Shown: positions 16,371 through 25,885 of the stretch, piece after piece
Numbering within the stretch: the stretch's first letter is position 1
Layout: each line of letters begins with the position of its first letter
NCBI GenBank assembly: GCA_945787125.1
Contig: CALZHW010000004.1
Coordinates: 3,139-63,451 of the forward strand
Length of the DNA stretch: 60,313 nucleotides
Source of the DNA: an uncultured Ectothiorhodospiraceae bacterium
GTDB lineage: Bacteria > Pseudomonadota > Gammaproteobacteria > S012-40
Direction of reading: 5' to 3'
Program-made: the position numbers and the translations under genes
The notes under the pieces: model-generated
Told to the model about the DNA's origin: nothing
Seen by the model: the letters and a program-made list of their open reading frames with translations, nothing else
The model's database searches: none

Positions 16371-16939
16371 AAAAGTTAGATCGATTATTTTTCTCAGTGG
16401 TTGTTGTAAAAATACACGTGCTTTAGGTAGTGCAATAGATTGTCTATGCTGCGTTCATAAATAGCAAGTCTCCCAAGTTCGATTAGTCAGCCAGGAAAAA
16501 ATAAAGTTGCAGAAAGGCGCTGTAGCCAAGCTCTGGGTTTTTGCGGATTCGTTTTAATTTTTTTCGTTGAAACTGATGACAGCTTGCATTGCAGTAGGTA
16601 TTATTAATGCTCTGTGGGTCAGCTAATTGGAATTTCGGCAAGTTTTGTTGAAATGAAGTTGACAGCTTTTTGGTTTAGTGGTTGAATGCCACGTTAGTTG
16701 GTGTTTTATCACCGGTTAATTTTGGTATTAATAACATATAAGAGGGAGATGGGCCGTGTTAGATACACAATCAATCGCACTAATTTATGTAATTTGGTTT
16801 GTTGGCGCTTTTGTCTTATCGTGGACTATGCTTAAGCTAAATTCTTAATCAGTACAAGTACGAAGGGCTCCTGGTCGATAAGTATCGCTATGGAGTAGGG
16901 TTAATTCTGGGAGGCTATTAATTGGGAGGGCTTCTTGAT

Positions 16940-17698
16940 ATGAGACGTTATGTAAAAGCAATGTCGACAGCAGTAGTTGTAGCTGGCTTAGTTGTGCCAG
17001 CAATTGCGGTGTCGTCACCGATGTATCCGAAAGGCAAGGGCAATATTGCCGCTGGGAAACAAATTTTCGAAAATGGTAAGGGGACTGTCCCCGCCTGTAC
17101 TGCTTGTCATTCAGAAGATGGCATGGGCAATGATGACATGGGTACGCCGCGCATCGCAGGTCAATATGCAGTATTTTTGAGAAAACAACTTGAAGATTTT
17201 GCGACTGACAAGCGTAAAGATAATACCATGGGTGTAATGAATGATAATGCGAAAGGTTTAAGTCCGCAGGATCGTACCGATGTCTCTACCTATCTAGAAT
17301 CGATTGATCCAGGCGCCAAAGGCGAGATGTTTTTCAATGGTTCCAACCTGGAAGAGCTTACCGCAAATGGTGTTGAAGTTGGAGCAACTCATAAAGGCAA
17401 AAGCCTGGTTGAGTGGGGTCAAGGCAATCGCCAAAAACCCGTTGCAGCTTGCAGATCTTGTCATGGCTTTAACGGCCGTGGTGCACCACCGATCTATCCT
17501 CGCATAGGCGGTCAGCGTTACGTTTATTTAGTTAATCAATTGAAAGCATGGAGAGATGGCACTCGCAATAATGATCCAATGGGTCAGATGCAAGCTATCG
17601 CTCGCAATATGTCAGATGAAGACATCAAAAATGCTGCAGCTTACTTAACTAAAGCATCAGACTATACGAAAGGTAATTTTTACACACCTTACGATTAA
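16940..17698 (+). CDS. diheme cytochrome c4
   Basis: Signal peptide, then two class-I heme motifs (CTACH and CRSCH), each with a downstream Met region (DDMGTPRIAGQ / PIYPRIGGQ). ATG at 16940 lies 9 nt after GGGAGGG. The listed ORF starts at an upstream TTG. Confidence 0.85.
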   Translation: MRRYVKAMSTAVVVAGLVVPAIAVSSPMYPKGKGNIAAGKQIFENGKGTVPACTACHSEDGMGNDDMGTPRIAGQYAVFLRKQLEDFATDKRKDNTMGVMNDNAKGLSPQDRTDVSTYLESIDPGAKGEMFFNGSNLEELTANGVEVGATHKGKSLVEWGQGNRQKPVAACRSCHGFNGRGAPPIYPRIGGQRYVYLVNQLKAWRDGTRNNDPMGQMQAIARNMSDEDIKNAAAYLTKASDYTKGNFYTPYD

Positions 17699-17720
17699 TG
17701 CCTGCTGTAAAAGATAAAAA

Positions 17721-17747
17721 AGGCGGGAACTTTCCCGCCTTTTTTTA
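17721..17747 (+). terminator. rho-independent terminator after cytochrome c4
   Basis: AGGCGGGA-actt-TCCCGCCT followed by TTTTTTT. Confidence 0.85.
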
Positions 17748-17827
17748 TTCTAGTTAATATTACTTTAGCGTGCGATCCTCATACGCAGGATTGCGTCTCC
17801 GGTTAACAGAAACAGCGGCAGCATTAT

Positions 17828-18457
17828 ATGAAAAAAAAATCTCAACCTTTAAAGTCAGGTGAAAAAATACTATTCATAGTTTTCGGCGTATTTTTTGTTC
17901 TCGCAACGATTGCTTATGTTGGGCTCGAAACAGTTCGATTGAATTCCGATGAGCCTATGTTTGAGCAAACAACATTTTTTGATTTTTCTGAAGAAGGGAA
18001 GAAAGGATCGGAATTGTATCGCAAGGCACGATGTAATTCTTGTCACCGCGCCTTAAGGTCGGGTACCAGCATGGGGTTGATATTGGACGGAATTGGCTCA
18101 AAGCGCTCCGTCGAGTGGCTGGAGGCATTTATTTTAAATCCTGAAGCAACCTATGGTCATGAAACGCTGGATCATGGACCGTCACCGAAAGAAGCGGCCT
18201 ACGCGATGAAGATGCCGCGAGAAGATATTACGCGGATAGCAATATTTTTATCAGAACTCAAGGCCGATCCAGGATCCTCCGTATCCAAAATGCCACCACC
18301 AGAGCACTCAGTGTTTATTGATAGCATGGTTAAAATGTGGGCACCTGCAGAGTGGAAAGAAAAATACACTGATATTCGAGATAGAAAGCCTGAAGAAGAG
18401 GCAGTAAATGTTGAACAAGAGCAAATAAAATCAGAAGGGGATCTGGTCAATGAGTGA
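17828..18457 (+). CDS. membrane-anchored monoheme cytochrome c, FixO/CcoO-like
   Basis: 209 aa with an N-terminal TM and one CNSCH. GSELYRKARCNSCH ... GLILDGIGSKRSVEWLEAFILNPE parallels the CcoO pattern G..(I/L)Y..(E/A).C..CH ... GPDL..(V/I)G.(R/K).S.EW....L.NP. Confidence 0.65.
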   Translation: MKKKSQPLKSGEKILFIVFGVFFVLATIAYVGLETVRLNSDEPMFEQTTFFDFSEEGKKGSELYRKARCNSCHRALRSGTSMGLILDGIGSKRSVEWLEAFILNPEATYGHETLDHGPSPKEAAYAMKMPREDITRIAIFLSELKADPGSSVSKMPPPEHSVFIDSMVKMWAPAEWKEKYTDIRDRKPEEEAVNVEQEQIKSEGDLVNE

Positions 18458-18992
18458 TGTAGTTGTGCCGGCATGGCGTCATGAAAAAGAATTGATATAT
18501 AAGAAATATACTTTGTGGTTTATTTATGCGTGCATAATTTACAGTCTTATCGGATTTTCTTGGGGCGCGATTATGGGCGGAATTACCGAACTCCGTCATT
18601 TTGTTGATCATCGCTTGCATGGAGACTTAATTGTAAGGGGTCATACCCACATTAACCTTCTAGGTTGGGTGGAAATGGCAATATTCGGCGCAGTTTATTA
18701 TATTATTCCTCGCTTGGTAAACCGGCCTATCTATAGTCTAAAGCTAGTTATTGTGCACTTCTGGATTCATAATATTGGTTTGATTGGAATGGTCGTGTTC
18801 TTTGTCATGGCCGGCACAATGGGTGGTATGGCTAGTGTTAACTCATCTCCACAGGATGTGGAGAGCATAGTGCAGCCCTTGCTCGCTACGATGGGGATAT
18901 TCGGCACCATGGTATTGCTAGCTAATTGCATTTGGGCGTACAATCTCTTTAAAACGTGTGCGAATTGGGAGAAAAATTATGCGACTAACTAA
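18450..18992 (+). CDS. four-TM mini heme-copper-oxidase subunit-I-like protein (CcoN helix VI-VII-like fragment)
   Basis: 180 aa. RGHTHINLLGWVEMAIFGAVYYIIPRLVNRPIYSLKLVIVHFWIHNIG aligns residue for residue with FWFAHNVLGLWITPVAAAIAYYTIPKLTGNPLYSHRIGHLHFWSII of the full-length CcoN-like gene at 20918. Overlaps the preceding cytochrome gene by 8 nt. Confidence 0.6.
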   Translation: MSDVVVPAWRHEKELIYKKYTLWFIYACIIYSLIGFSWGAIMGGITELRHFVDHRLHGDLIVRGHTHINLLGWVEMAIFGAVYYIIPRLVNRPIYSLKLVIVHFWIHNIGLIGMVVFFVMAGTMGGMASVNSSPQDVESIVQPLLATMGIFGTMVLLANCIWAYNLFKTCANWEKNYATN

Positions 18993-19485
18993 GTTGCTAA
19001 TTCTAGCGGCGTTCAGTTTGACTACAGTAAGCATCAGTGGTTGTTTTGCCCCCGAAGGTGTGCTTAAGATTGGTGCTGTTGCACCACCCATAAAAACCCG
19101 TTCATTGCGAGATGTCGGTGGTGATATGTCGCGCCTAACAAGTTATCGTTATCCTGATGAAAGAATGTACCGTTACTCTATAGACGAAGCGGTAACTATG
19201 GGGAAGACAGTTTTACTGGAATTCGCGACGCCTGGGCATTGCACGGTATGTGATAAGCAGTTGCAAATGCTAAAAGCCATGGTGACCAAGTACTCGGGTG
19301 ATGTGCTATTTTTACATATGGATCAATATATGAACCCGCAGGCGTTTAAGGCGTTTCGTGTAAAGGGGGATCCCTGGACATTTATCATCGATAAAGATGG
19401 GATCGTGCAATTCAAACAAGCTGGTCGAATTTTGTATGGCGAATTGGATCATCATTTAGCGAAAGTAATAAATGCAAAAAGTTAA
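18979..19485 (+). CDS. TlpA/ResA-like thioredoxin-fold lipoprotein (thiol-disulfide oxidoreductase)
   Basis: Lipobox SISGC. Thioredoxin-type LLEFATPGHCTVCDKQ (CxxC). ATG 7 nt after GGGAG. The listed ORF begins at an upstream alternative start. Confidence 0.65.
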   Translation: MRLTKLLILAAFSLTTVSISGCFAPEGVLKIGAVAPPIKTRSLRDVGGDMSRLTSYRYPDERMYRYSIDEAVTMGKTVLLEFATPGHCTVCDKQLQMLKAMVTKYSGDVLFLHMDQYMNPQAFKAFRVKGDPWTFIIDKDGIVQFKQAGRILYGELDHHLAKVINAKS

Positions 19486-19487
19486 TT

Positions 19488-19943
19488 ATGGCAAAAGAAT
19501 TCGAATACATACTTCATAAAGATAAAAAAGGCACGATGTGGGATTTGCTTTTGTATATTCCGACAACAATTGCACTTGCCGTCGTTGCTTCAAAGATGTG
19601 GTACGCTGGCAACGAGGGGCTGAGTTATCTTCTAGTGTTTTTAACCACGTTTATTGTGCTGATCGCTTTTAACCGAATTGCCAAGACCCGGCTAATGCTT
19701 ATTCCTAGTTCGCCGGTAAGTCTAAATGTCTCTAAGCAGGGCGTGGCATTAACATTGAGAAGCGGTAATGTGATCGAGTTGGTGAAGGATATAAGGTTTT
19801 TTACTGACTTTGCAGGGCGAAGTTACGGCTTGTCGGGTTTTGACTTGTCAGGCAGCAAGCAGCAGTTTGTTTTCCATAAGGGGCAGTTTGCCTCGGATAC
19901 AGAGTTTGATGGTTCTAAAGCGCAATTAAGAGTGTTTAAGTAA
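19488..19943 (+). CDS. two-TM membrane protein with C-terminal soluble (bPH-like?) domain
   Basis: 151 aa. Starts 2 nt after the previous stop. Hydrophobic hairpin at residues ~20-65. No recognisable catalytic motif. Confidence 0.45.
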   Translation: MAKEFEYILHKDKKGTMWDLLLYIPTTIALAVVASKMWYAGNEGLSYLLVFLTTFIVLIAFNRIAKTRLMLIPSSPVSLNVSKQGVALTLRSGNVIELVKDIRFFTDFAGRSYGLSGFDLSGSKQQFVFHKGQFASDTEFDGSKAQLRVFK

Positions 19944-19949
19944 TGCAAT

Positions 19950-19983
19950 AAAGGAAGGGTTATTTTAGTCCCTTCCTTTTTTT
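19950..19983. terminator. bidirectional rho-independent terminator
   Basis: AAAGGAAGGG-ttattttagt-CCCTTCCTTT followed by TTTT. Lies between convergent genes and overlaps the last codons of the minus-strand gene. Confidence 0.7.
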
Positions 19984-20917: not shown

Positions 20918-22327
20918 ATGTTGATGAAATATCTCTTCGCCAAGAATGAAGAAATTCCTGCTGGATCGGCAACGATCTTTTTTGGTTTTTCATCCATTTT
21001 TTGGTTTGTAGTAGGGACTGGTTTAGGTTCTTTTAATGCGGCAAAGCTTGCTTTTCCTGACTGGGTAACCGGTACTGAGCTTTTCGCTTTTGGTCACATG
21101 CGTCAAGTGCATGTTTTGGCAGTTATTCTGGGCTGGATTTCAATGGCATTTGGTATGACCATGATGTACATGACTCCCGCCTTAGGTAACACTAAGTTAT
21201 GGTCCGAGAAATTGGGTCTTTGGACAGTGTTCATGTGGAACGTTGGTCTTAGCTTGGGTCTAACACTATTATGGATGGGTATCACATCTGGTCGTGAGTA
21301 TAGCGATCTTATCTGGCCAATCGATTTAGTCGTTATATTCGGCGTATTGTTACCTTTGGGTATCAACGTATGGATGACCATTTCGCATCGTAAAACTCAA
21401 GGTATATACATCACCAACTGGTTCTTTGGTGCTTGTATCTTCATGCTCATGATCGTTTTCTTTGTCGGTAATTCACCAGAATTATTTAATCTGACCGGTC
21501 TGACTGAGGCGTATCTAACGTTTTGGTTTGCTCATAACGTATTGGGATTGTGGATAACGCCAGTTGCAGCAGCAATTGCTTACTACACGATTCCAAAACT
21601 GACGGGTAACCCACTATACTCTCACCGTATTGGACATCTGCATTTCTGGTCTATCATCGCTTTCTATTCAACTCCTGCTTCGCATCACTTAATGTCTGCG
21701 CCATTGCCTGAGTGGTTGAAGTCTTTTGCTTCAGTAGAAGGTGTTTTGATCTTGATCCCAGCAGTGGCATTCGTTGCTAACATTTTGTTAACAATGAAAG
21801 GCAAGTGGAGCTTGTTTGTAGAGAATATTGAAACTAAATTCTCTATTACCGGTGTTCTACTCGCAATTCCATTGAATATGCAAGGTGGATTCCAGCAAAC
21901 ACGTGCGATTAACTGGTATGTTCATGGAACAGGCTGGATAGTTGCTCACGCTCACTTGGCACTGTTAGGAATGTCTAGCTTCTTGGAAGCCGCAGCCGTT
22001 TACTTTGGTTTGCAGCAAATGTTGAGAAGAAAGCTTTATTCTTTAACCTTAGCTAACTTGCATTACTGGTTCTTTATAATCGGTTTCTGCACATACTGGA
22101 TTTCAATGACAATTGCCGGCCTTATGCAGGGTGCAGGTAAAATCTATGAAGTACCTTATATCGACGTAGTTGTAGCAGAGCATCCATACATGATCGCTCG
22201 CTGGGCCGGCGGTACAATGGTATTCACTGGTAATGTGATCTGGTTATACAACATGTGGATGACAGCTCGCGAAGGAACTATTGTTCCATCTGGCCGTTAC
22301 GCACACGAGTTGGCTTACGAGCGTTAA
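20918..22327 (+). CDS. ccoN: C-family (cbb3-type) heme-copper oxidase subunit I, divergent CcoN
   Basis: 469 aa, ~12 TM, collinear with CcoN. Motifs: MRQVHVLAV (helix II heme His), REYSDLIWPID, GIYITNWFFG, FWFAHNVLG (helix VI CuB His), YYTIPKLTGNPLYSHRIGHLHFW, FYSTPASHHLMSAPLPEW (Tyr six residues before the HH CuB pair) and IVAHAHLALLG (HxH heme ligands). GGGAGGTG lies 7 nt upstream. Confidence 0.85.
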   Translation: MLMKYLFAKNEEIPAGSATIFFGFSSIFWFVVGTGLGSFNAAKLAFPDWVTGTELFAFGHMRQVHVLAVILGWISMAFGMTMMYMTPALGNTKLWSEKLGLWTVFMWNVGLSLGLTLLWMGITSGREYSDLIWPIDLVVIFGVLLPLGINVWMTISHRKTQGIYITNWFFGACIFMLMIVFFVGNSPELFNLTGLTEAYLTFWFAHNVLGLWITPVAAAIAYYTIPKLTGNPLYSHRIGHLHFWSIIAFYSTPASHHLMSAPLPEWLKSFASVEGVLILIPAVAFVANILLTMKGKWSLFVENIETKFSITGVLLAIPLNMQGGFQQTRAINWYVHGTGWIVAHAHLALLGMSSFLEAAAVYFGLQQMLRRKLYSLTLANLHYWFFIIGFCTYWISMTIAGLMQGAGKIYEVPYIDVVVAEHPYMIARWAGGTMVFTGNVIWLYNMWMTAREGTIVPSGRYAHELAYER

Positions 22328-22420
22328 GATAAACGTTTTGTAAAACAATATAGTAATTAACTTCTTCTTATCTTCGGGAGTTGTCCCGGAGATAAGAAGG
22401 TTAGGGAGGAGGAATTACAA

Positions 22421-23377
22421 ATGGCCTTTCAAAGATATAAATTCGGTGCAGCAGGCATCGGTTTAATGTTTGGCTTTTCAATGTCAATTACACTTTTTGG
22501 CCCAGCCAATGACTTCCGCTCAGGAGTGTCAACTTGGGTAGGTTTGGATAAGCAATTGTCATTGGGTCGAGTAATCGGATTTTCTTATGAGGATCCTTTG
22601 GTTATAGGTGATGGCAAACCCATTGTCGTTATTTTAGATAAAGATCCAAAGACTGGCGCAGCGATTGATCCACCACAGCGTGCCTATGTCTATTCGGCAG
22701 GAATCAAGTTCTCTCCAGGTGTTAATCACCCAGAGTTGCTTGGTCCAGGTGTGCGGGATTTGAGTGAAGGCAAAGGTCAAATTGCACAAGCAAATATGGC
22801 TACTGGCGCAGTATTCACTATTGGTAAAGACGAGTTCAATGGTGAAGAGCTCGACTATATAGTAAATGCGACGGCAGTTAGTGGTTGGACTCCAGCAGAA
22901 GTCTTATCAGCAGCAGGCGATGAAAATATGCGCTATGTTGGTAAGGGCAAGACAATCTACATTACTGAAGGTTGCTGGTGGTGTCACACGTTATTGCCAG
23001 AGCAAACGCAAGATTGGCAGTTTTTTGGCGCACCCCCGTTCTTAGGTGATATGAATGGTGAGATGCCAACAGCTTTCGGTTCAGACCGAAAAGCACCTGA
23101 CTTGTTGCATGTAGCTTCTCGCAATTCTTCTCGTGAATGGATGACCATGCACTTCTTTAATCCACGCTTGGTGCAGCCAAATTCAATCATGCCACGCTTT
23201 GATTATCTTTGGGGTAAAAAAGACGCTAGTGGGAATACCATTGATTTTAAAAAATGGCGTGCCGATTACACAGCGTACGTAAATGGCAAAACCATTTACC
23301 CACCTGAAGTTCCAGAGCCAGCGCGCACAGCTGAAGTTCGTGCGTTGATTGACTGGGTATTAACATCACTACGATAG
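22421..23377 (+). CDS. ccoO: CcoO/FixO-like monoheme cytochrome c subunit with ~110-aa insertion
   Basis: 318 aa with an N-terminal TM anchor and a single CWWCH. GKTIYITEGCWWCH ... GSDRKAPDLLHVASRNSSREWMTMHFFNPRLVQPNSIMPRF is collinear with CcoO. About 175 residues precede the heme motif, against ~65 in canonical CcoO. Confidence 0.8.
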   Translation: MAFQRYKFGAAGIGLMFGFSMSITLFGPANDFRSGVSTWVGLDKQLSLGRVIGFSYEDPLVIGDGKPIVVILDKDPKTGAAIDPPQRAYVYSAGIKFSPGVNHPELLGPGVRDLSEGKGQIAQANMATGAVFTIGKDEFNGEELDYIVNATAVSGWTPAEVLSAAGDENMRYVGKGKTIYITEGCWWCHTLLPEQTQDWQFFGAPPFLGDMNGEMPTAFGSDRKAPDLLHVASRNSSREWMTMHFFNPRLVQPNSIMPRFDYLWGKKDASGNTIDFKKWRADYTAYVNGKTIYPPEVPEPARTAEVRALIDWVLTSLR

Positions 23378-24927: not shown

Positions 24928-25419
24928 ATGCGAAAAGGCGAAAAAATCATAGTTGTTGCGATGCTGGCATCGGTTGGGTTACTGGCCTGGATGAAAGAAA
25001 AAAAATCATCAATTGATGATGACAATCTAGACGTACCATTTTATTCAACAGCGACCAAGGAGGTAACTGATCGGGCAGCAAAGACAATGCATGATATAGG
25101 CTGTCGAAAATGTCATAGCTTATGGGGTGTGCGTGATTTATCACAAGCGGTTCCTGCGCCGGCATTAGACGGAATGGGCATGTTTCGAGATGAGGAATGG
25201 CTTTATACCTATTTTTCAGCCGAAAATCCGCAAGAAATTTTACCTTCGCGATTGAAACCTGAATATCGCATGCCCTCTTTAGCCTCATTAAGTGAGGAAG
25301 AAAGACGAAATCTAGCAAATTACATGGCTAACTTAAAACTGCATGACTGGTTTTTTCAAGAAGCCAAAGAGGCAAGATACGAAAAGTTAACCGGCAAGGA
25401 CTACCAGCCTGATGATTAA
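24928..25419 (+). CDS. membrane-anchored monoheme cytochrome c, FixO-like
   Basis: 163 aa with an N-terminal TM and one CRKCH. PAPALDGMGMFRDEEWLYTYFSAENPQEILPS...YRMPS parallels the CcoO C-terminal pattern. Confidence 0.65.
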   Translation: MRKGEKIIVVAMLASVGLLAWMKEKKSSIDDDNLDVPFYSTATKEVTDRAAKTMHDIGCRKCHSLWGVRDLSQAVPAPALDGMGMFRDEEWLYTYFSAENPQEILPSRLKPEYRMPSLASLSEEERRNLANYMANLKLHDWFFQEAKEARYEKLTGKDYQPDD

Positions 25420-25885
25420 TTTTGGTGGGATAAAGCTTATAGATGTCGCTTGGATGATTATGGCGATAGCCGTTGGGATAACTATCATCTATGTTGGGGA
25501 GAGAGTTTTAAATGTCCGATTAGCTGTATTTTACGGAATTGAAACATTTAATCCTCGGTGGGTCTTGGCGCTAATCGTTGTGCCACTATTTGCAGGCATG
25601 GTTATTTCATTTATATATGGTCTTGGTGGTAAAATGCTGGCTCATTTTGCACCAATACCTATTCAAATTTATCACTATATGCACCTGGATAGTATGATAT
25701 TGCCGGAGGGTGTTACGATGTTACCCGTTGGTTATTGGATTTTAATTTTAATTGTTGCAGTAGAGGCCGCAGCGGTTGGTGGTTTTATTGGTGAAGTCGT
25801 AATAAAAAGAACATATGGCCGACGCCCCAAGCATTTGGTGCATAAGCGTTATCGAACAAAAGAGATGAAAGAGTCAGAAAGCTAA
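25412..25885 (+). CDS. four-TM membrane protein
   Basis: 157 aa. Overlaps the previous gene by 8 nt. The loop contains IYHYMHLDSM (His/Met-rich). Basic C-terminus. Confidence 0.5.
   Translation: MINFGGIKLIDVAWMIMAIAVGITIIYVGERVLNVRLAVFYGIETFNPRWVLALIVVPLFAGMVISFIYGLGGKMLAHFAPIPIQIYHYMHLDSMILPEGVTMLPVGYWILILIVAVEAAAVGGFIGEVVIKRTYGRRPKHLVHKRYRTKEMKESES

What the first reader, a model, noticed from the sequence alone, without database searches (positions are those of the whole stretch)
17828..19943. Mini heme-copper-oxidase module: FixO-like cytochrome c translationally coupled to a four-helix CcoN fragment
The 180-aa protein aligns without gaps to the helix VI-VII region of the full-length CcoN-like protein encoded 2 kb downstream: GHTHINLLGWVEMAIFGAVYYIIPRLVNRPIYSLKLVIVHFW against FAHNVLGLWITPVAAAIAYYTIPKLTGNPLYSHRIGHLHFW. 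It keeps the helix VI histidine position, here within an HxH. It lacks the HH CuB pair, the helix II and helix X heme ligands, and eight of the twelve helices. It therefore cannot be a conventional oxidase. It still has several membrane-embedded His residues (HFVDHRLH, GHTH, HFWIH) that could bind heme or metal. Its gene overlaps a membrane-anchored CcoO-like monoheme cytochrome by 8 nt. A TlpA-like thiol-disulfide oxidoreductase lipoprotein and a two-TM protein follow, and the unit has its own terminator. A CcoO-like plus truncated CcoN-like pair could be an electron-transfer, sensing or assembly module.
Basis: partly seen in the sequence, partly recalled or inferred. Interest (0 to 1): 0.65.

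Follow-up and report, generated by a model that had tools for sequence, protein, structure and literature searches.

The report
Free-standing one-third of a respiratory oxidase
The 180-residue protein is a real, very strongly conserved stand-alone copy of the four-helix unit that occurs three times in respiratory oxidases; it keeps that unit's two haem-binding histidines, sits in a four-gene operon with its own cytochrome c, and is always inherited with an unusual cbb3 oxidase of iron-oxidising bacteria, but this kind of protein is already described and its function is untested.

Summary
The four coupled genes (17828-19943) and both flanking terminators are real. Its best match is to helices IX-XII, and its GHTH motif is the helix X HxH that ligates haem b3 and haem b. 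The helix VI-VII alignment is only the second of three matches, which arise from the oxidase's internal threefold repeat. So the protein keeps the helix X haem ligands and lacks only the CuB site.

It is a single-unit "HCO-homology" protein, a kind described by Pei et al. 2014. This family is listed as "truncated CcoN" in Ca. Tenderia electrophaga.

New here:
- The gene order cyt c, mini, Trx-like, PH-like membrane protein holds in all 84 loci examined.
- In 301 sampled genomes the mini occurs in 22. Of those, 21 carry the CcoP-less CcoN, and all 22 carry a second single-unit paralogue, found here on another contig.
- Related ~400-aa proteins are three such units fused.

Most likely it forms an oligomer, probably a trimer, that binds haem b and is fed by its cytochrome c, as an accessory to that oxidase. 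An assembly-factor role is the main rival. Function is untested.

The parts
17716..17745 (+). Intrinsic terminator hairpin (13-bp stem, T-run on both strands). It separates the upstream dihaem cytochrome gene from the module.
   Evidence: sequence read
17828..18457 (+). Membrane-anchored monohaem cytochrome c, 209 aa. It has an N-terminal TM helix and CxxCH at C69/C72/H73. M82, D115-H116 and a C-terminal PPxxSxFI...APxEWxxxYxDxR segment are invariant.
   Evidence: Directly upstream of the mini gene in every locus that extends far enough upstream (83 of 84).
18450..18992 (+). Single-unit HCO-homology protein ('mini-CcoN'), 180 aa with four TM helices (14-44, 59-90, 97-128, 134-170). H65-x-H67 is the helix X haem-ligand pair. 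H54, H57, H103, H107, D53, R55, R63, E75, R88 and E138 are invariant.
18979..19485 (+). Periplasmic thioredoxin-fold CxxC lipoprotein. It has a lipobox ISG|C, invariant H-C-T-x-C, H113/D115 and a cis-Pro motif GDPWT. The ORF lister starts it at GTG 18958, but ATG 18979 with a GGGAG Shine-Dalgarno is the likely start.
19488..19943 (+). Two-TM membrane protein with a cytoplasmic PH-like beta-sandwich domain capped by a C-terminal helix. No Pfam family.
   Evidence: pLDDT 92; best Foldseek hits are all PH-like domains, weak, E 0.01-0.15
19950..19983 (+). Terminator: AAAGGAAGGG, 10-nt loop, CCCTTCCTTT, then a T-run.
   Evidence: read directly
16922..17698 (+). Context: dihaem c4-type cytochrome. 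It corresponds by position in the conserved cluster, and by a 53% tblastn match in a Ca. Tenderia sp. locus, to the Ca. Tenderia gene labelled Cyc1.
20918..23377 (+). Context: CcoN (469 aa) and an insert-bearing CcoO (318 aa) of the CcoP-less cbb3-type oxidase. This is the only full-length HCO subunit I found in this genome.

Best explanation
The 180-aa protein is a free-standing single 'evolutionary unit' of haem-copper-oxidase subunit I. It has four TM helices, most like helices IX-XII of CcoN. At the periplasmic end of its second helix it carries the HxH pair that ligates the two haems in real oxidases. Eight residues upstream it also carries the conserved His.

Inferred mechanism:
- It does not work as a monomer. 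It assembles into an oligomer, most simply a trimer, which rebuilds the 12-helix oxidase core.
- Each interface would hold a b-type haem between H65 of one protomer and H67 of its neighbour. This is the same pairing that holds the low-spin haem between helix II and helix X in oxidases.
- A hetero-oligomer with the genome's second single-unit paralogue is equally possible.
- The translationally coupled, membrane-anchored monohaem cytochrome c would dock on the periplasmic face and pass electrons to these haems, as NorC and CcoO do for NorB and CcoN.
- With no CuB ligands, the complex cannot reduce O2 in the normal way.
- It acts as a low-abundance redox accessory of the CcoP-less cbb3 oxidase, with which it is strictly co-inherited.

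Shown: homology, ligand conservation, operon structure, synteny, co-occurrence and purifying selection.
Inferred: haem binding, oligomeric state, electron flow and physiological role.
For: Homology:
- Pfam COX1 62.6 bits, profile positions 305-434.
- BLASTP against the neighbouring CcoN residues 321-450, E 5e-16. Weaker matches to residues 166-244 and 10-111 are the internal repeat.
- The family profile aligns H65/H67 with P. stutzeri CcoN H345/H347, and H65 with helix II H60.
- The AF2 model (pLDDT 84, pTM 0.81) has four TM helices. The top Foldseek hits are all cbb3 CcoN chains, TMq 0.66-0.74.

Constraint:
- More than 765 homologues of 170-180 aa at 70-89% identity, with 72 invariant columns including six His.
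- dN 0.12-0.17, the lowest in the operon, with saturated dS.

Oligomer:
- Proteins of about 400 aa (P0131, P0140, P0141, P0143, P0153) are three tandem copies of this unit. Each copy has HxHxxLLGW, and the three score about equally against the mini profile.
- Nearly all other single-unit relatives keep HxH.

Partnership:
- The order cyt c, mini, Trx, two-TM/PH is the same in 84 of 84 loci from Gammaproteobacteria and Zetaproteobacteria. Gene junctions are tight.

Link to the oxidase:
- Of 301 class genomes, 22 have the mini. Of these, 21 have the CcoN469-type subunit at 76% identity or more. No genome has that subunit without the mini.
- The second single-unit paralogue is present in the same 22 of 22 genomes.

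Expression of the orthologous genes in Ca. Tenderia electrophaga:
- Tel_00410 and Tel_00415 have logCPM 9.3 and 8.7. The adjacent CcoN has 13.7 (PMC5371394 Table S1).
Against: - No cofactor, oligomer or activity data exist for any member.
- The tools fold single chains only, so neither the trimer nor the cytochrome docking could be modelled.
- The periplasmic loop carrying D53/H54/R55/H57 is modelled with low confidence (pLDDT 54-65).
- mRNA about 30-fold below the oxidase in Tenderia fits an assembly factor at least as well as a working redox complex.
- A more distant relative (L087) sits between CcoS-like and CcoG-like biogenesis genes.
- The unit tree on 68 shared columns is unresolved. It does not tell whether the family is an old single unit or a derived copy of CcoN unit 3.
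Confidence: 0.5

Rival explanations
1. Assembly or maturation factor. The mini-unit transiently binds haem b (or mimics the C-terminal third of CcoN) to hand haem or metal to the nascent CcoP-less CcoN. The Trx-like lipoprotein keeps cysteines reduced, and the PH-like membrane protein acts as a scaffold. It is not part of a working redox chain.
For: - Strict co-inheritance with one oxidase type.
- A separate operon with its own terminators.
- About 30-fold lower mRNA than the oxidase genes in Ca. Tenderia.
- The island is full of biogenesis genes, including CcoS-like and CcoG-like.
- In L087 a relative lies directly between CcoS-like and CcoG-like genes, with its Trx partner.
- TlpA-type proteins are classical oxidase biogenesis factors (established knowledge).
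Against: - A dedicated, translationally coupled c-type cytochrome is unusual for a chaperone.
- At 70-86% identity between classes, the mini is conserved like a catalytic subunit and far better than the Trx-like (49-61%) or PH-like (37-62%) proteins.
- Some Zetaproteobacteria loci have the module with no oxidase within 3-5 kb (L067, L068, L078).
Confidence: 0.25
2. Minimal NorCB-like detoxifying reductase. The cytochrome c plus the oligomeric mini-unit reduce NO (or another small oxidant) at a haem, with help from the invariant carboxylates and histidines. This would protect the NO-sensitive cbb3 oxidase in Fe(II)- and nitrite-rich habitats.
For: - The gene order, cytochrome before HCO-like gene, is that of norCB.
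- NorC is a weak PDB hit that includes the TM anchor (E 0.019).
- E75, two helical turns below H67, is invariant, and there is an invariant D53/H54/H57 cluster.
- Other single- and three-unit relatives sit beside ScdA_N/DUF1858, hemerythrin and Sco genes, which are typical NO- and redox-stress neighbours.
- As recalled, Pei et al. 2014 proposed NO-related roles for HCOH proteins. The paper is not held.
Against: - There are no equivalents of the three-His non-haem metal site. The sequence has no HH pair.
- Both H65 and H67 are invariant, which favours six-coordinate, electron-transfer-type haems.
- There is no nitrogen-oxide gene in the operon.
- There is no experimental hint.
Confidence: 0.1
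3. Functionless remnant of a partial CcoN duplication.
For: It equals only a third of CcoN and lies 2 kb from a full-length copy.
Against: - It is intact in 391 species genomes.
- 21 of 22 sampled copies have no stop codon.
- There are 72 invariant columns.
- dN is far below a saturated dS.
- The four-gene synteny is conserved across two proteobacterial classes.
- It is only 31% identical to the neighbouring CcoN.
- It is transcribed in Ca. Tenderia.
Confidence: 0.01

Closest known systems
Single-evolutionary-unit HCO-homology (HCOH) proteins of Pei, Li, Kinch & Grishin, Protein Sci 2014;23:1220 (doi 10.1002/pro.2503)
   Same: It is an independent gene encoding four TM helices most similar to TMH 9-12 of HCO/NOR subunit I, with the HxH retained. 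Those authors proposed homo- or heterotrimers. They also described 12-TM three-unit relatives, which were recovered here.
   Different: The paper is not held in the library. Its content is recalled from memory, and its existence was confirmed only through citing papers. I could not check whether this particular family, with its cytochrome c, Trx-like and PH-like partners and its tie to a CcoP-less cbb3, is treated there. No member has been studied experimentally.
'Truncated CcoN' ALP51724.1 (Tel_00415) of Candidatus Tenderia electrophaga, with monohaem cytochrome ALP51723.1 and thioredoxin ALP51725.1
   Same: It has the same gene order beside the same CcoN/CcoO pair: dihaem Cyc1, monohaem c, truncated CcoN, thioredoxin, then CcoN and CcoO. 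Loci from Ca. Tenderia sp. genomes are among the homologues.
   Different: It is only listed in genomics and transcriptomics papers, which suggest 'a sort of alternative complex IV'. In Tenderia the second truncated CcoN ends the same island. In this genome it lies on another contig.
CcoN, subunit I of cbb3-type (C-family) oxidases (PDB 3mk7, 6xkw, 8smr, 9g6b)
   Same: The fold and sequence match helices IX-XII. The HxH haem ligands, the His eight residues upstream, and the YYxxPRxxxRPxYSxxLxxxHFW motif are shared.
   Different: It has four helices instead of twelve. It has no helix VI/VII CuB ligands and no cross-linked Tyr. It scores 60 bits against the 583-bit cut-off of TIGR00780.
cNOR NorC-NorB / cbb3 CcoO-CcoN pairs
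   Same: A membrane-anchored monohaem cytochrome c is encoded next to, and coupled with, an HCO-type haem-binding membrane protein.
   Different: The cytochrome is not a clear FixO or NorC family member. The membrane partner has one unit, not three, and no binuclear centre.

Membership tests
HCO subunit I (Pfam COX1 PF00115; CcoN TIGR00780) | Significant match to the family model | tested here: met
   PF00115 scores 62.6 bits against a 34.8-bit cut-off, but only over profile positions 305-434 of 436. TIGR00780 scores 60 bits against a 583-bit cut-off, so it is not an equivalog.
HCO subunit I (Pfam COX1 PF00115; CcoN TIGR00780) | Twelve-helix core | tested here: not met
   The protein is 180 aa. 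The AF2 model has four TM helices.
HCO subunit I (Pfam COX1 PF00115; CcoN TIGR00780) | CuB ligands (helix VI His plus helix VII HH pair) | tested here: not met
   There is no HH dipeptide in the sequence. TM3 ends ...FVMAGTMGGMAS.
HCO subunit I (Pfam COX1 PF00115; CcoN TIGR00780) | Helix X HxH haem ligands | tested here: met
   H65/H67 align with P. stutzeri CcoN H345/H347 and are invariant in 33 of 33 sequences.
Single-unit HCO-homology (HCOH) proteins (Pei et al. 2014) | Independent gene of about four TM helices, most similar to TMH 9-12 and weakly to TMH 1-4 and 5-8 | tested here: met
   The three HSPs have E 5e-16, 2e-6 and 4e-5. The profile finds three domains in 3mk7_A. It has its own start, Shine-Dalgarno and stop.
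Single-unit HCO-homology (HCOH) proteins (Pei et al. 2014) | Assembly as homo- or heterotrimer that recreates the HCO core | not testable with these tools
   Only single chains can be folded. Indirect support comes from fused three-unit relatives and from a co-inherited second unit gene.
FixO/CcoO (PF02433), for the 209-aa cytochrome | Match to the FixO model or to solved CcoO chains | tested here: not met
   The window protein has no FixO hit even at E<=1. 13 of 28 orthologues hit weakly (best E 1e-6). No CcoO chain appears in the PDB profile search at E<=10. hhalign against the window's CcoO gives probability 6.6%.
FixO/CcoO (PF02433), for the 209-aa cytochrome | N-terminal TM anchor plus a single periplasmic CxxCH domain | tested here: met
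   The sequence runs K-rich N-terminus, hydrophobic residues 15-37, then one CxxCH. PF00034 matches at E 4.7e-7.
TlpA/ResA/DsbE-type thiol:disulfide oxidoreductases, for the 175-aa protein | Thioredoxin fold with CxxC and a cis-Pro loop, exported | tested here: met
   PF00085 scores 25.6 bits against a 23.5-bit cut-off. CTxC, GDPWT and the lipobox Cys are invariant. PDB hits are thioredoxins and DsbE. NCBIfam ResA and DsbE cut-offs are not reached. It is not Sco-like.
DUF2871 (PF11070) | Match above the gathering score | tested here: not met
   17.7 bits against a 27.4-bit cut-off. It is a faint relative only.

The most novel reading that the evidence does not exclude
The mini-unit, alone or with the co-inherited second unit encoded on contig 29, assembles into a 12-helix ring. 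At each interface a b haem is held by H65 of one protomer and H67 of the next. Together with its own cytochrome c, this would be a working, pre-triplication-style haem-copper-oxidase core without copper. It would serve the CcoP-less cbb3 of iron oxidisers as an electron gate or a small-molecule reductase. It would be a living model of how respiratory oxidases arose from a four-helix ancestor.
Probability: 0.3. Interest if true: 0.8.

Novelty: new member of a known kind. Interest (0 to 1): 0.5.

Why it matters
Haem-copper oxidases are thought to have arisen by triplication of a four-helix unit, and a natural, strongly constrained single unit lets that idea be tested at the bench. Expression, haem content, oligomeric state and structure are all ordinary experiments.

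This family is also a fixed companion of the CcoP-less cbb3 oxidase. That oxidase is the only full-length haem-copper oxidase subunit I found in this genome, and it is highly expressed in the electroautotroph Ca. Tenderia. The module's role therefore bears on how neutrophilic iron oxidisers and electrode-oxidising bacteria route electrons to oxygen.

The perfect three-way co-inheritance found here (mini, second unit, oxidase) gives a concrete hypothesis about which proteins to co-express.

Tried and rejected
It is the second of three repeat matches.
- Pseudogene or remnant: rejected.
- Split CcoN, with a separate gene for helices I-VIII: rejected. A PF00115 search of the whole genome finds only the 469-aa CcoN and two single units.
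- The 157-aa membrane protein (25412-25885), which also overlaps a cytochrome c gene by 8 nt, as a hidden second mini: no similarity (BLASTP E 6, hhalign probability 0.3%).
- Sco-like copper chaperone for the Trx-like protein: not supported. PDB hits are thioredoxins and DsbE only.
- Unit phylogeny to decide whether the family is ancient or derived from CcoN unit 3: unresolved. On 68 shared columns the free tree puts the family outside unit 3, but a constrained tree is no worse (p-AU 0.79).
Only published Ca. Tenderia data were used.
- Literature: full-text searches for threefold symmetry, triplication and DUF2871 found nothing on this family. Pei et al. 2014 is not held.
- Trimer or cytochrome-complex modelling: not possible, because the structure tool takes single natural chains only.
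Full report
**1. What is in the sequence**

Four co-directional ORFs fill 17828-19943:
- a 209-aa protein with an N-terminal hydrophobic helix and one CxxCH;
- a 180-aa hydrophobic protein;
- a thioredoxin-like protein;
- a 151-aa protein.

The cytochrome and the 180-aa gene overlap by ATGAGTGA, and GAAGGGG lies 9 nt upstream of the second start. The Trx-like gene most probably starts at ATG 18979. That start has a GGGAG Shine-Dalgarno and gives the signal peptide MRLTKLL...ISG|C. It overlaps the end of the mini gene by 14 nt. The last gene starts 2 nt after the Trx stop.

A 13-bp terminator hairpin (17716-17745) precedes the unit. A perfect 10-bp hairpin, AAAGGAAGGG/CCCTTCCTTT with a T-run (19950-19983), follows it. 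The observation of a self-contained, translationally coupled four-gene operon is therefore correct.

**2. The 180-aa protein is a COX1 homologue, but of helices IX-XII**

- Pfam COX1 matches at 62.6 bits over profile positions 305-434 of 436. CcoN TIGR00780 matches over positions 334-463 of 474.
- Against the 469-aa CcoN encoded 2 kb downstream, the best BLASTP segment is residues 321-450 (31% identity, E 5e-16). A helix I-III segment is third (E 4e-5). These three matches are the known threefold internal repeat of subunit I.
- A family profile searched against PDB sequences aligns RAHTHINLLGWVEM with TIGHVHAGALGWVAM of P. stutzeri CcoN. So H65 matches H345 (haem b3 ligand) and H67 matches H347 (haem b ligand). 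In the weaker domains, H65 falls on helix II H60, and H67 falls next to helix VI H207.
- The AlphaFold model (33-sequence alignment, pLDDT 83.7, pTM 0.81) has four TM helices at 14-44, 59-90, 97-128 and 134-170. Its best Foldseek hits in the PDB are all cbb3 CcoN chains: 9g83_t, 6xkw_n, 9g6b_A, 3mk7_A and 8smr_E, with TMq 0.66-0.74 and rmsd 2.4-3.7 Å.

They are exactly what is kept. What is missing is the CuB site (there is no HH pair) and the other eight helices.

By the positive-inside rule, the N-terminus and the 91-96 loop are cytoplasmic. That places the HxH and the invariant D53-H54-R55-x-H57 loop on the periplasmic side, as in CcoN. H57 lies eight residues before the first haem ligand. 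From memory of the bovine structure, this is the position of the conserved His that helps bind Mg in A-type oxidases (H368). This last point is an inference.

**3. It is a constrained family, not a remnant**

- A search of 5.8 billion proteins returned 765 hits. The 120 listed are 169-185 aa and 68-89% identical.
- In a 33-sequence alignment, 72 columns are invariant. They include H54, H57, H65, H67, H103, H107, D53, R55, R63, E75, R88 and E138.
- A scan of one genome per species found 391 encoding genomes. They are Gammaproteobacteria (Ca. Tenderia, Thiohalomonadales, Ectothiorhodospiraceae and Chromatiales MAGs) and Zetaproteobacteria.
- More distant members (42-53% identity) occur in Nitrospirota, Leptospirillia, Betaproteobacteria and Ferrovum.
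- dN against six close relatives is 0.12-0.17, the lowest in the operon, and synonymous sites are saturated.

**4. Partners and neighbourhood**

In all 84 loci examined, tblastn finds the cytochrome directly upstream, and the Trx-like and 151-aa genes directly downstream, wherever the sequence extends that far. The CcoN469-CcoO318-p212 operon lies about 2 kb downstream in most loci. The exceptions are a few Zetaproteobacteria loci. Cytochrome-mini junctions are typically -8 to +6 nt.

The cytochrome family:
- It has invariant CxxCH, M82, D115-H116 and a conserved C-terminal segment.
- It matches generic PF00034. 13 of 28 orthologues, but not the window's protein, give weak FixO hits.
- Its best solved relative is the c domain of ACIII ActA (E 4e-7). 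NorC scores 0.019. No CcoO chain appears.
- It is therefore CcoO/NorC-like in topology, not a FixO family member.

The other two partners:
- The Trx-like protein is a lipoprotein with invariant HCTxC, H113/D115 and a cis-Pro GDPWT. It resembles thioredoxins and DsbE, not Sco.
- The 151-aa protein folds with pLDDT 92 into two TM helices plus a cytoplasmic PH-like sandwich.

**5. Co-inheritance**

In 301 genomes drawn evenly from the class:
- The mini occurs in 22, across 14 families, always as a single copy. One copy carries a stop codon.
- The CcoN469-type subunit (76% identity or more) occurs in 21 of these 22 and in no other genome. The exception is a fragmented assembly in which the mini lies near a contig end.

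A PF00115 search of the window's own genome (94.6% complete) finds only three hits: the 469-aa CcoN, the mini, and a second, divergent single unit on contig 29 (170 aa, PLAHAHINVIGG). That second unit is coupled to a 222-aa PF20603 'Bact_hydrolase' protein.

The second unit is present in the same 22 of 22 genomes. It is also present in two genomes that have a 56-57% CcoN variant but no mini. In many genomes it lies at the far end of the same island. So the mini, the second unit and the CcoP-less oxidase form one co-inherited set.

**6. Evidence on how it may work**

A profile search of 1.84 billion representatives returned three kinds of hit besides canonical oxidases, which the profile matches three times each, best in the C-terminal third:
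- other 150-190-aa single-unit proteins, nearly all with HxH;
- proteins of 390-437 aa made of three tandem units, each with HxHxxLLGW and with similar scores;
- longer forms.

The fused forms are Rosetta-stone evidence that three such units pack into one 12-helix body.

In oxidases, the pore between unit i-1 and unit i is lined by the first His of unit i and the second-position His of unit i-1:
- Low-spin haem: helix II His plus the second helix X His.
- Binuclear site: the first helix X His plus the helix VI His.

A trimer of a unit carrying both His would offer three equivalent bis-His haem sites. This is inference. It agrees with what Pei et al. (2014) proposed for single-unit 'HCOH' proteins, as I recall that paper. 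The paper is not held, and its existence was confirmed only through citations.

A tree of units on 68 shared columns cannot decide whether the family is ancient or derived from CcoN unit 3.

**7. Published context**

The Tenderiales preprint (10.1101/2022.05.06.490989) lists ALP51722 (dihaem), ALP51723 (monohaem), ALP51724 ('truncated CcoN') and ALP51725 (thioredoxin) upstream of CcoN ALP51729, and a second truncated CcoN at the end of the region. It suggests 'a sort of alternative complex IV'.

Table S1 of PMC5371394 gives these expression values:

| Gene | Role | logCPM |
|---|---|---|
| Tel_00410 | monohaem cytochrome | 9.27 |
| Tel_00415 | truncated CcoN | 8.71 |
| Tel_00440 | CcoN | 13.74 |
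| Tel_00405 | Cyc1 | 12.36 |

There is no significant response to electrode potential. The module is therefore transcribed, but about 30-fold less than the oxidase.

**8. Verdict**

The feature is real and ordinary in the sense that its kind has been described and this family has been listed. It is unusual in biology and has never been tested.

- Best reading (about 0.5): an oligomeric, haem-b-binding single-unit HCO core fed by its own cytochrome c, acting as a low-abundance redox accessory of the CcoP-less cbb3.
- Main rival (about 0.25): a haem or metal assembly factor for that oxidase.
- A NorCB-like detoxifying role is possible but lacks a binuclear site.

Noticed in passing
own genome contig 29, L096:6782-7959 (G000:C29:16281-17458): A second single-unit HCO-like gene (170 aa, AHAH motif) overlaps by 4 nt a 222-aa PF20603 'Bact_hydrolase' gene. 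This pair co-occurs with the mini in 22 of 22 sampled genomes. It usually ends the same oxidase island, but here it lies on another contig.
   Followed up: partly
window 24928-25885: A 163-aa membrane-anchored cytochrome c is a paralogue of the module's cytochrome (hhalign probability 94%, E 1e-7). It overlaps by 8 nt a 157-aa membrane protein that shows no COX1 similarity. The layout is the same as the cytochrome-mini pair, and it sits directly upstream of an FGE-sulfatase-like gene.
   Followed up: partly
L087:1-4889 (metagenome contig; nearest named relative of its mini is a Nitrospirae MAG protein): The gene order is cytochrome c, CcoS-like, single-unit protein (180 aa, orthologue of the contig-29 type), FGE-sulfatase, single-unit protein (187 aa, lacking the equivalents of H54, H57 and H103), Trx-like lipoprotein, 57-aa TM protein, CcoG-like. 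Here both unit types sit among oxidase biogenesis genes.
   Followed up: partly
proteins P0131, P0140, P0141, P0143, P0153; loci L090-L092: These 390-420-aa proteins are made of three tandem four-helix units, each keeping HxHxxLLGW. One lies beside an SCO1/SenC gene. An archaeal one lies beside ScdA_N/DUF1858 and DUF438-hemerythrin-PAS genes.
   Followed up: partly
L088:417-2194 and L089:595-2372: On two independent contigs, a 160-aa single-unit HCO-like protein (P0147) lies directly downstream of a 400-aa CARF/Csm6-like (Cas02710) gene. This could be a membrane partner of a cyclic-oligonucleotide sensor, or it could be chance.
   Followed up: no
window 17768-17800: A small imperfect inverted repeat (GCGATCCT ... 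AGGATTGC) lies in the 83-nt leader between the upstream terminator and the cytochrome start. No sigma-70-like promoter was picked up there.
   Followed up: no
whole genome (G000): The CcoP-less CcoN at window 20918-22327 is the only full-length COX1-family gene detected in this 94.6%-complete assembly. No canonical ccoNOQP or aa3 subunit I was found.
   Followed up: partly
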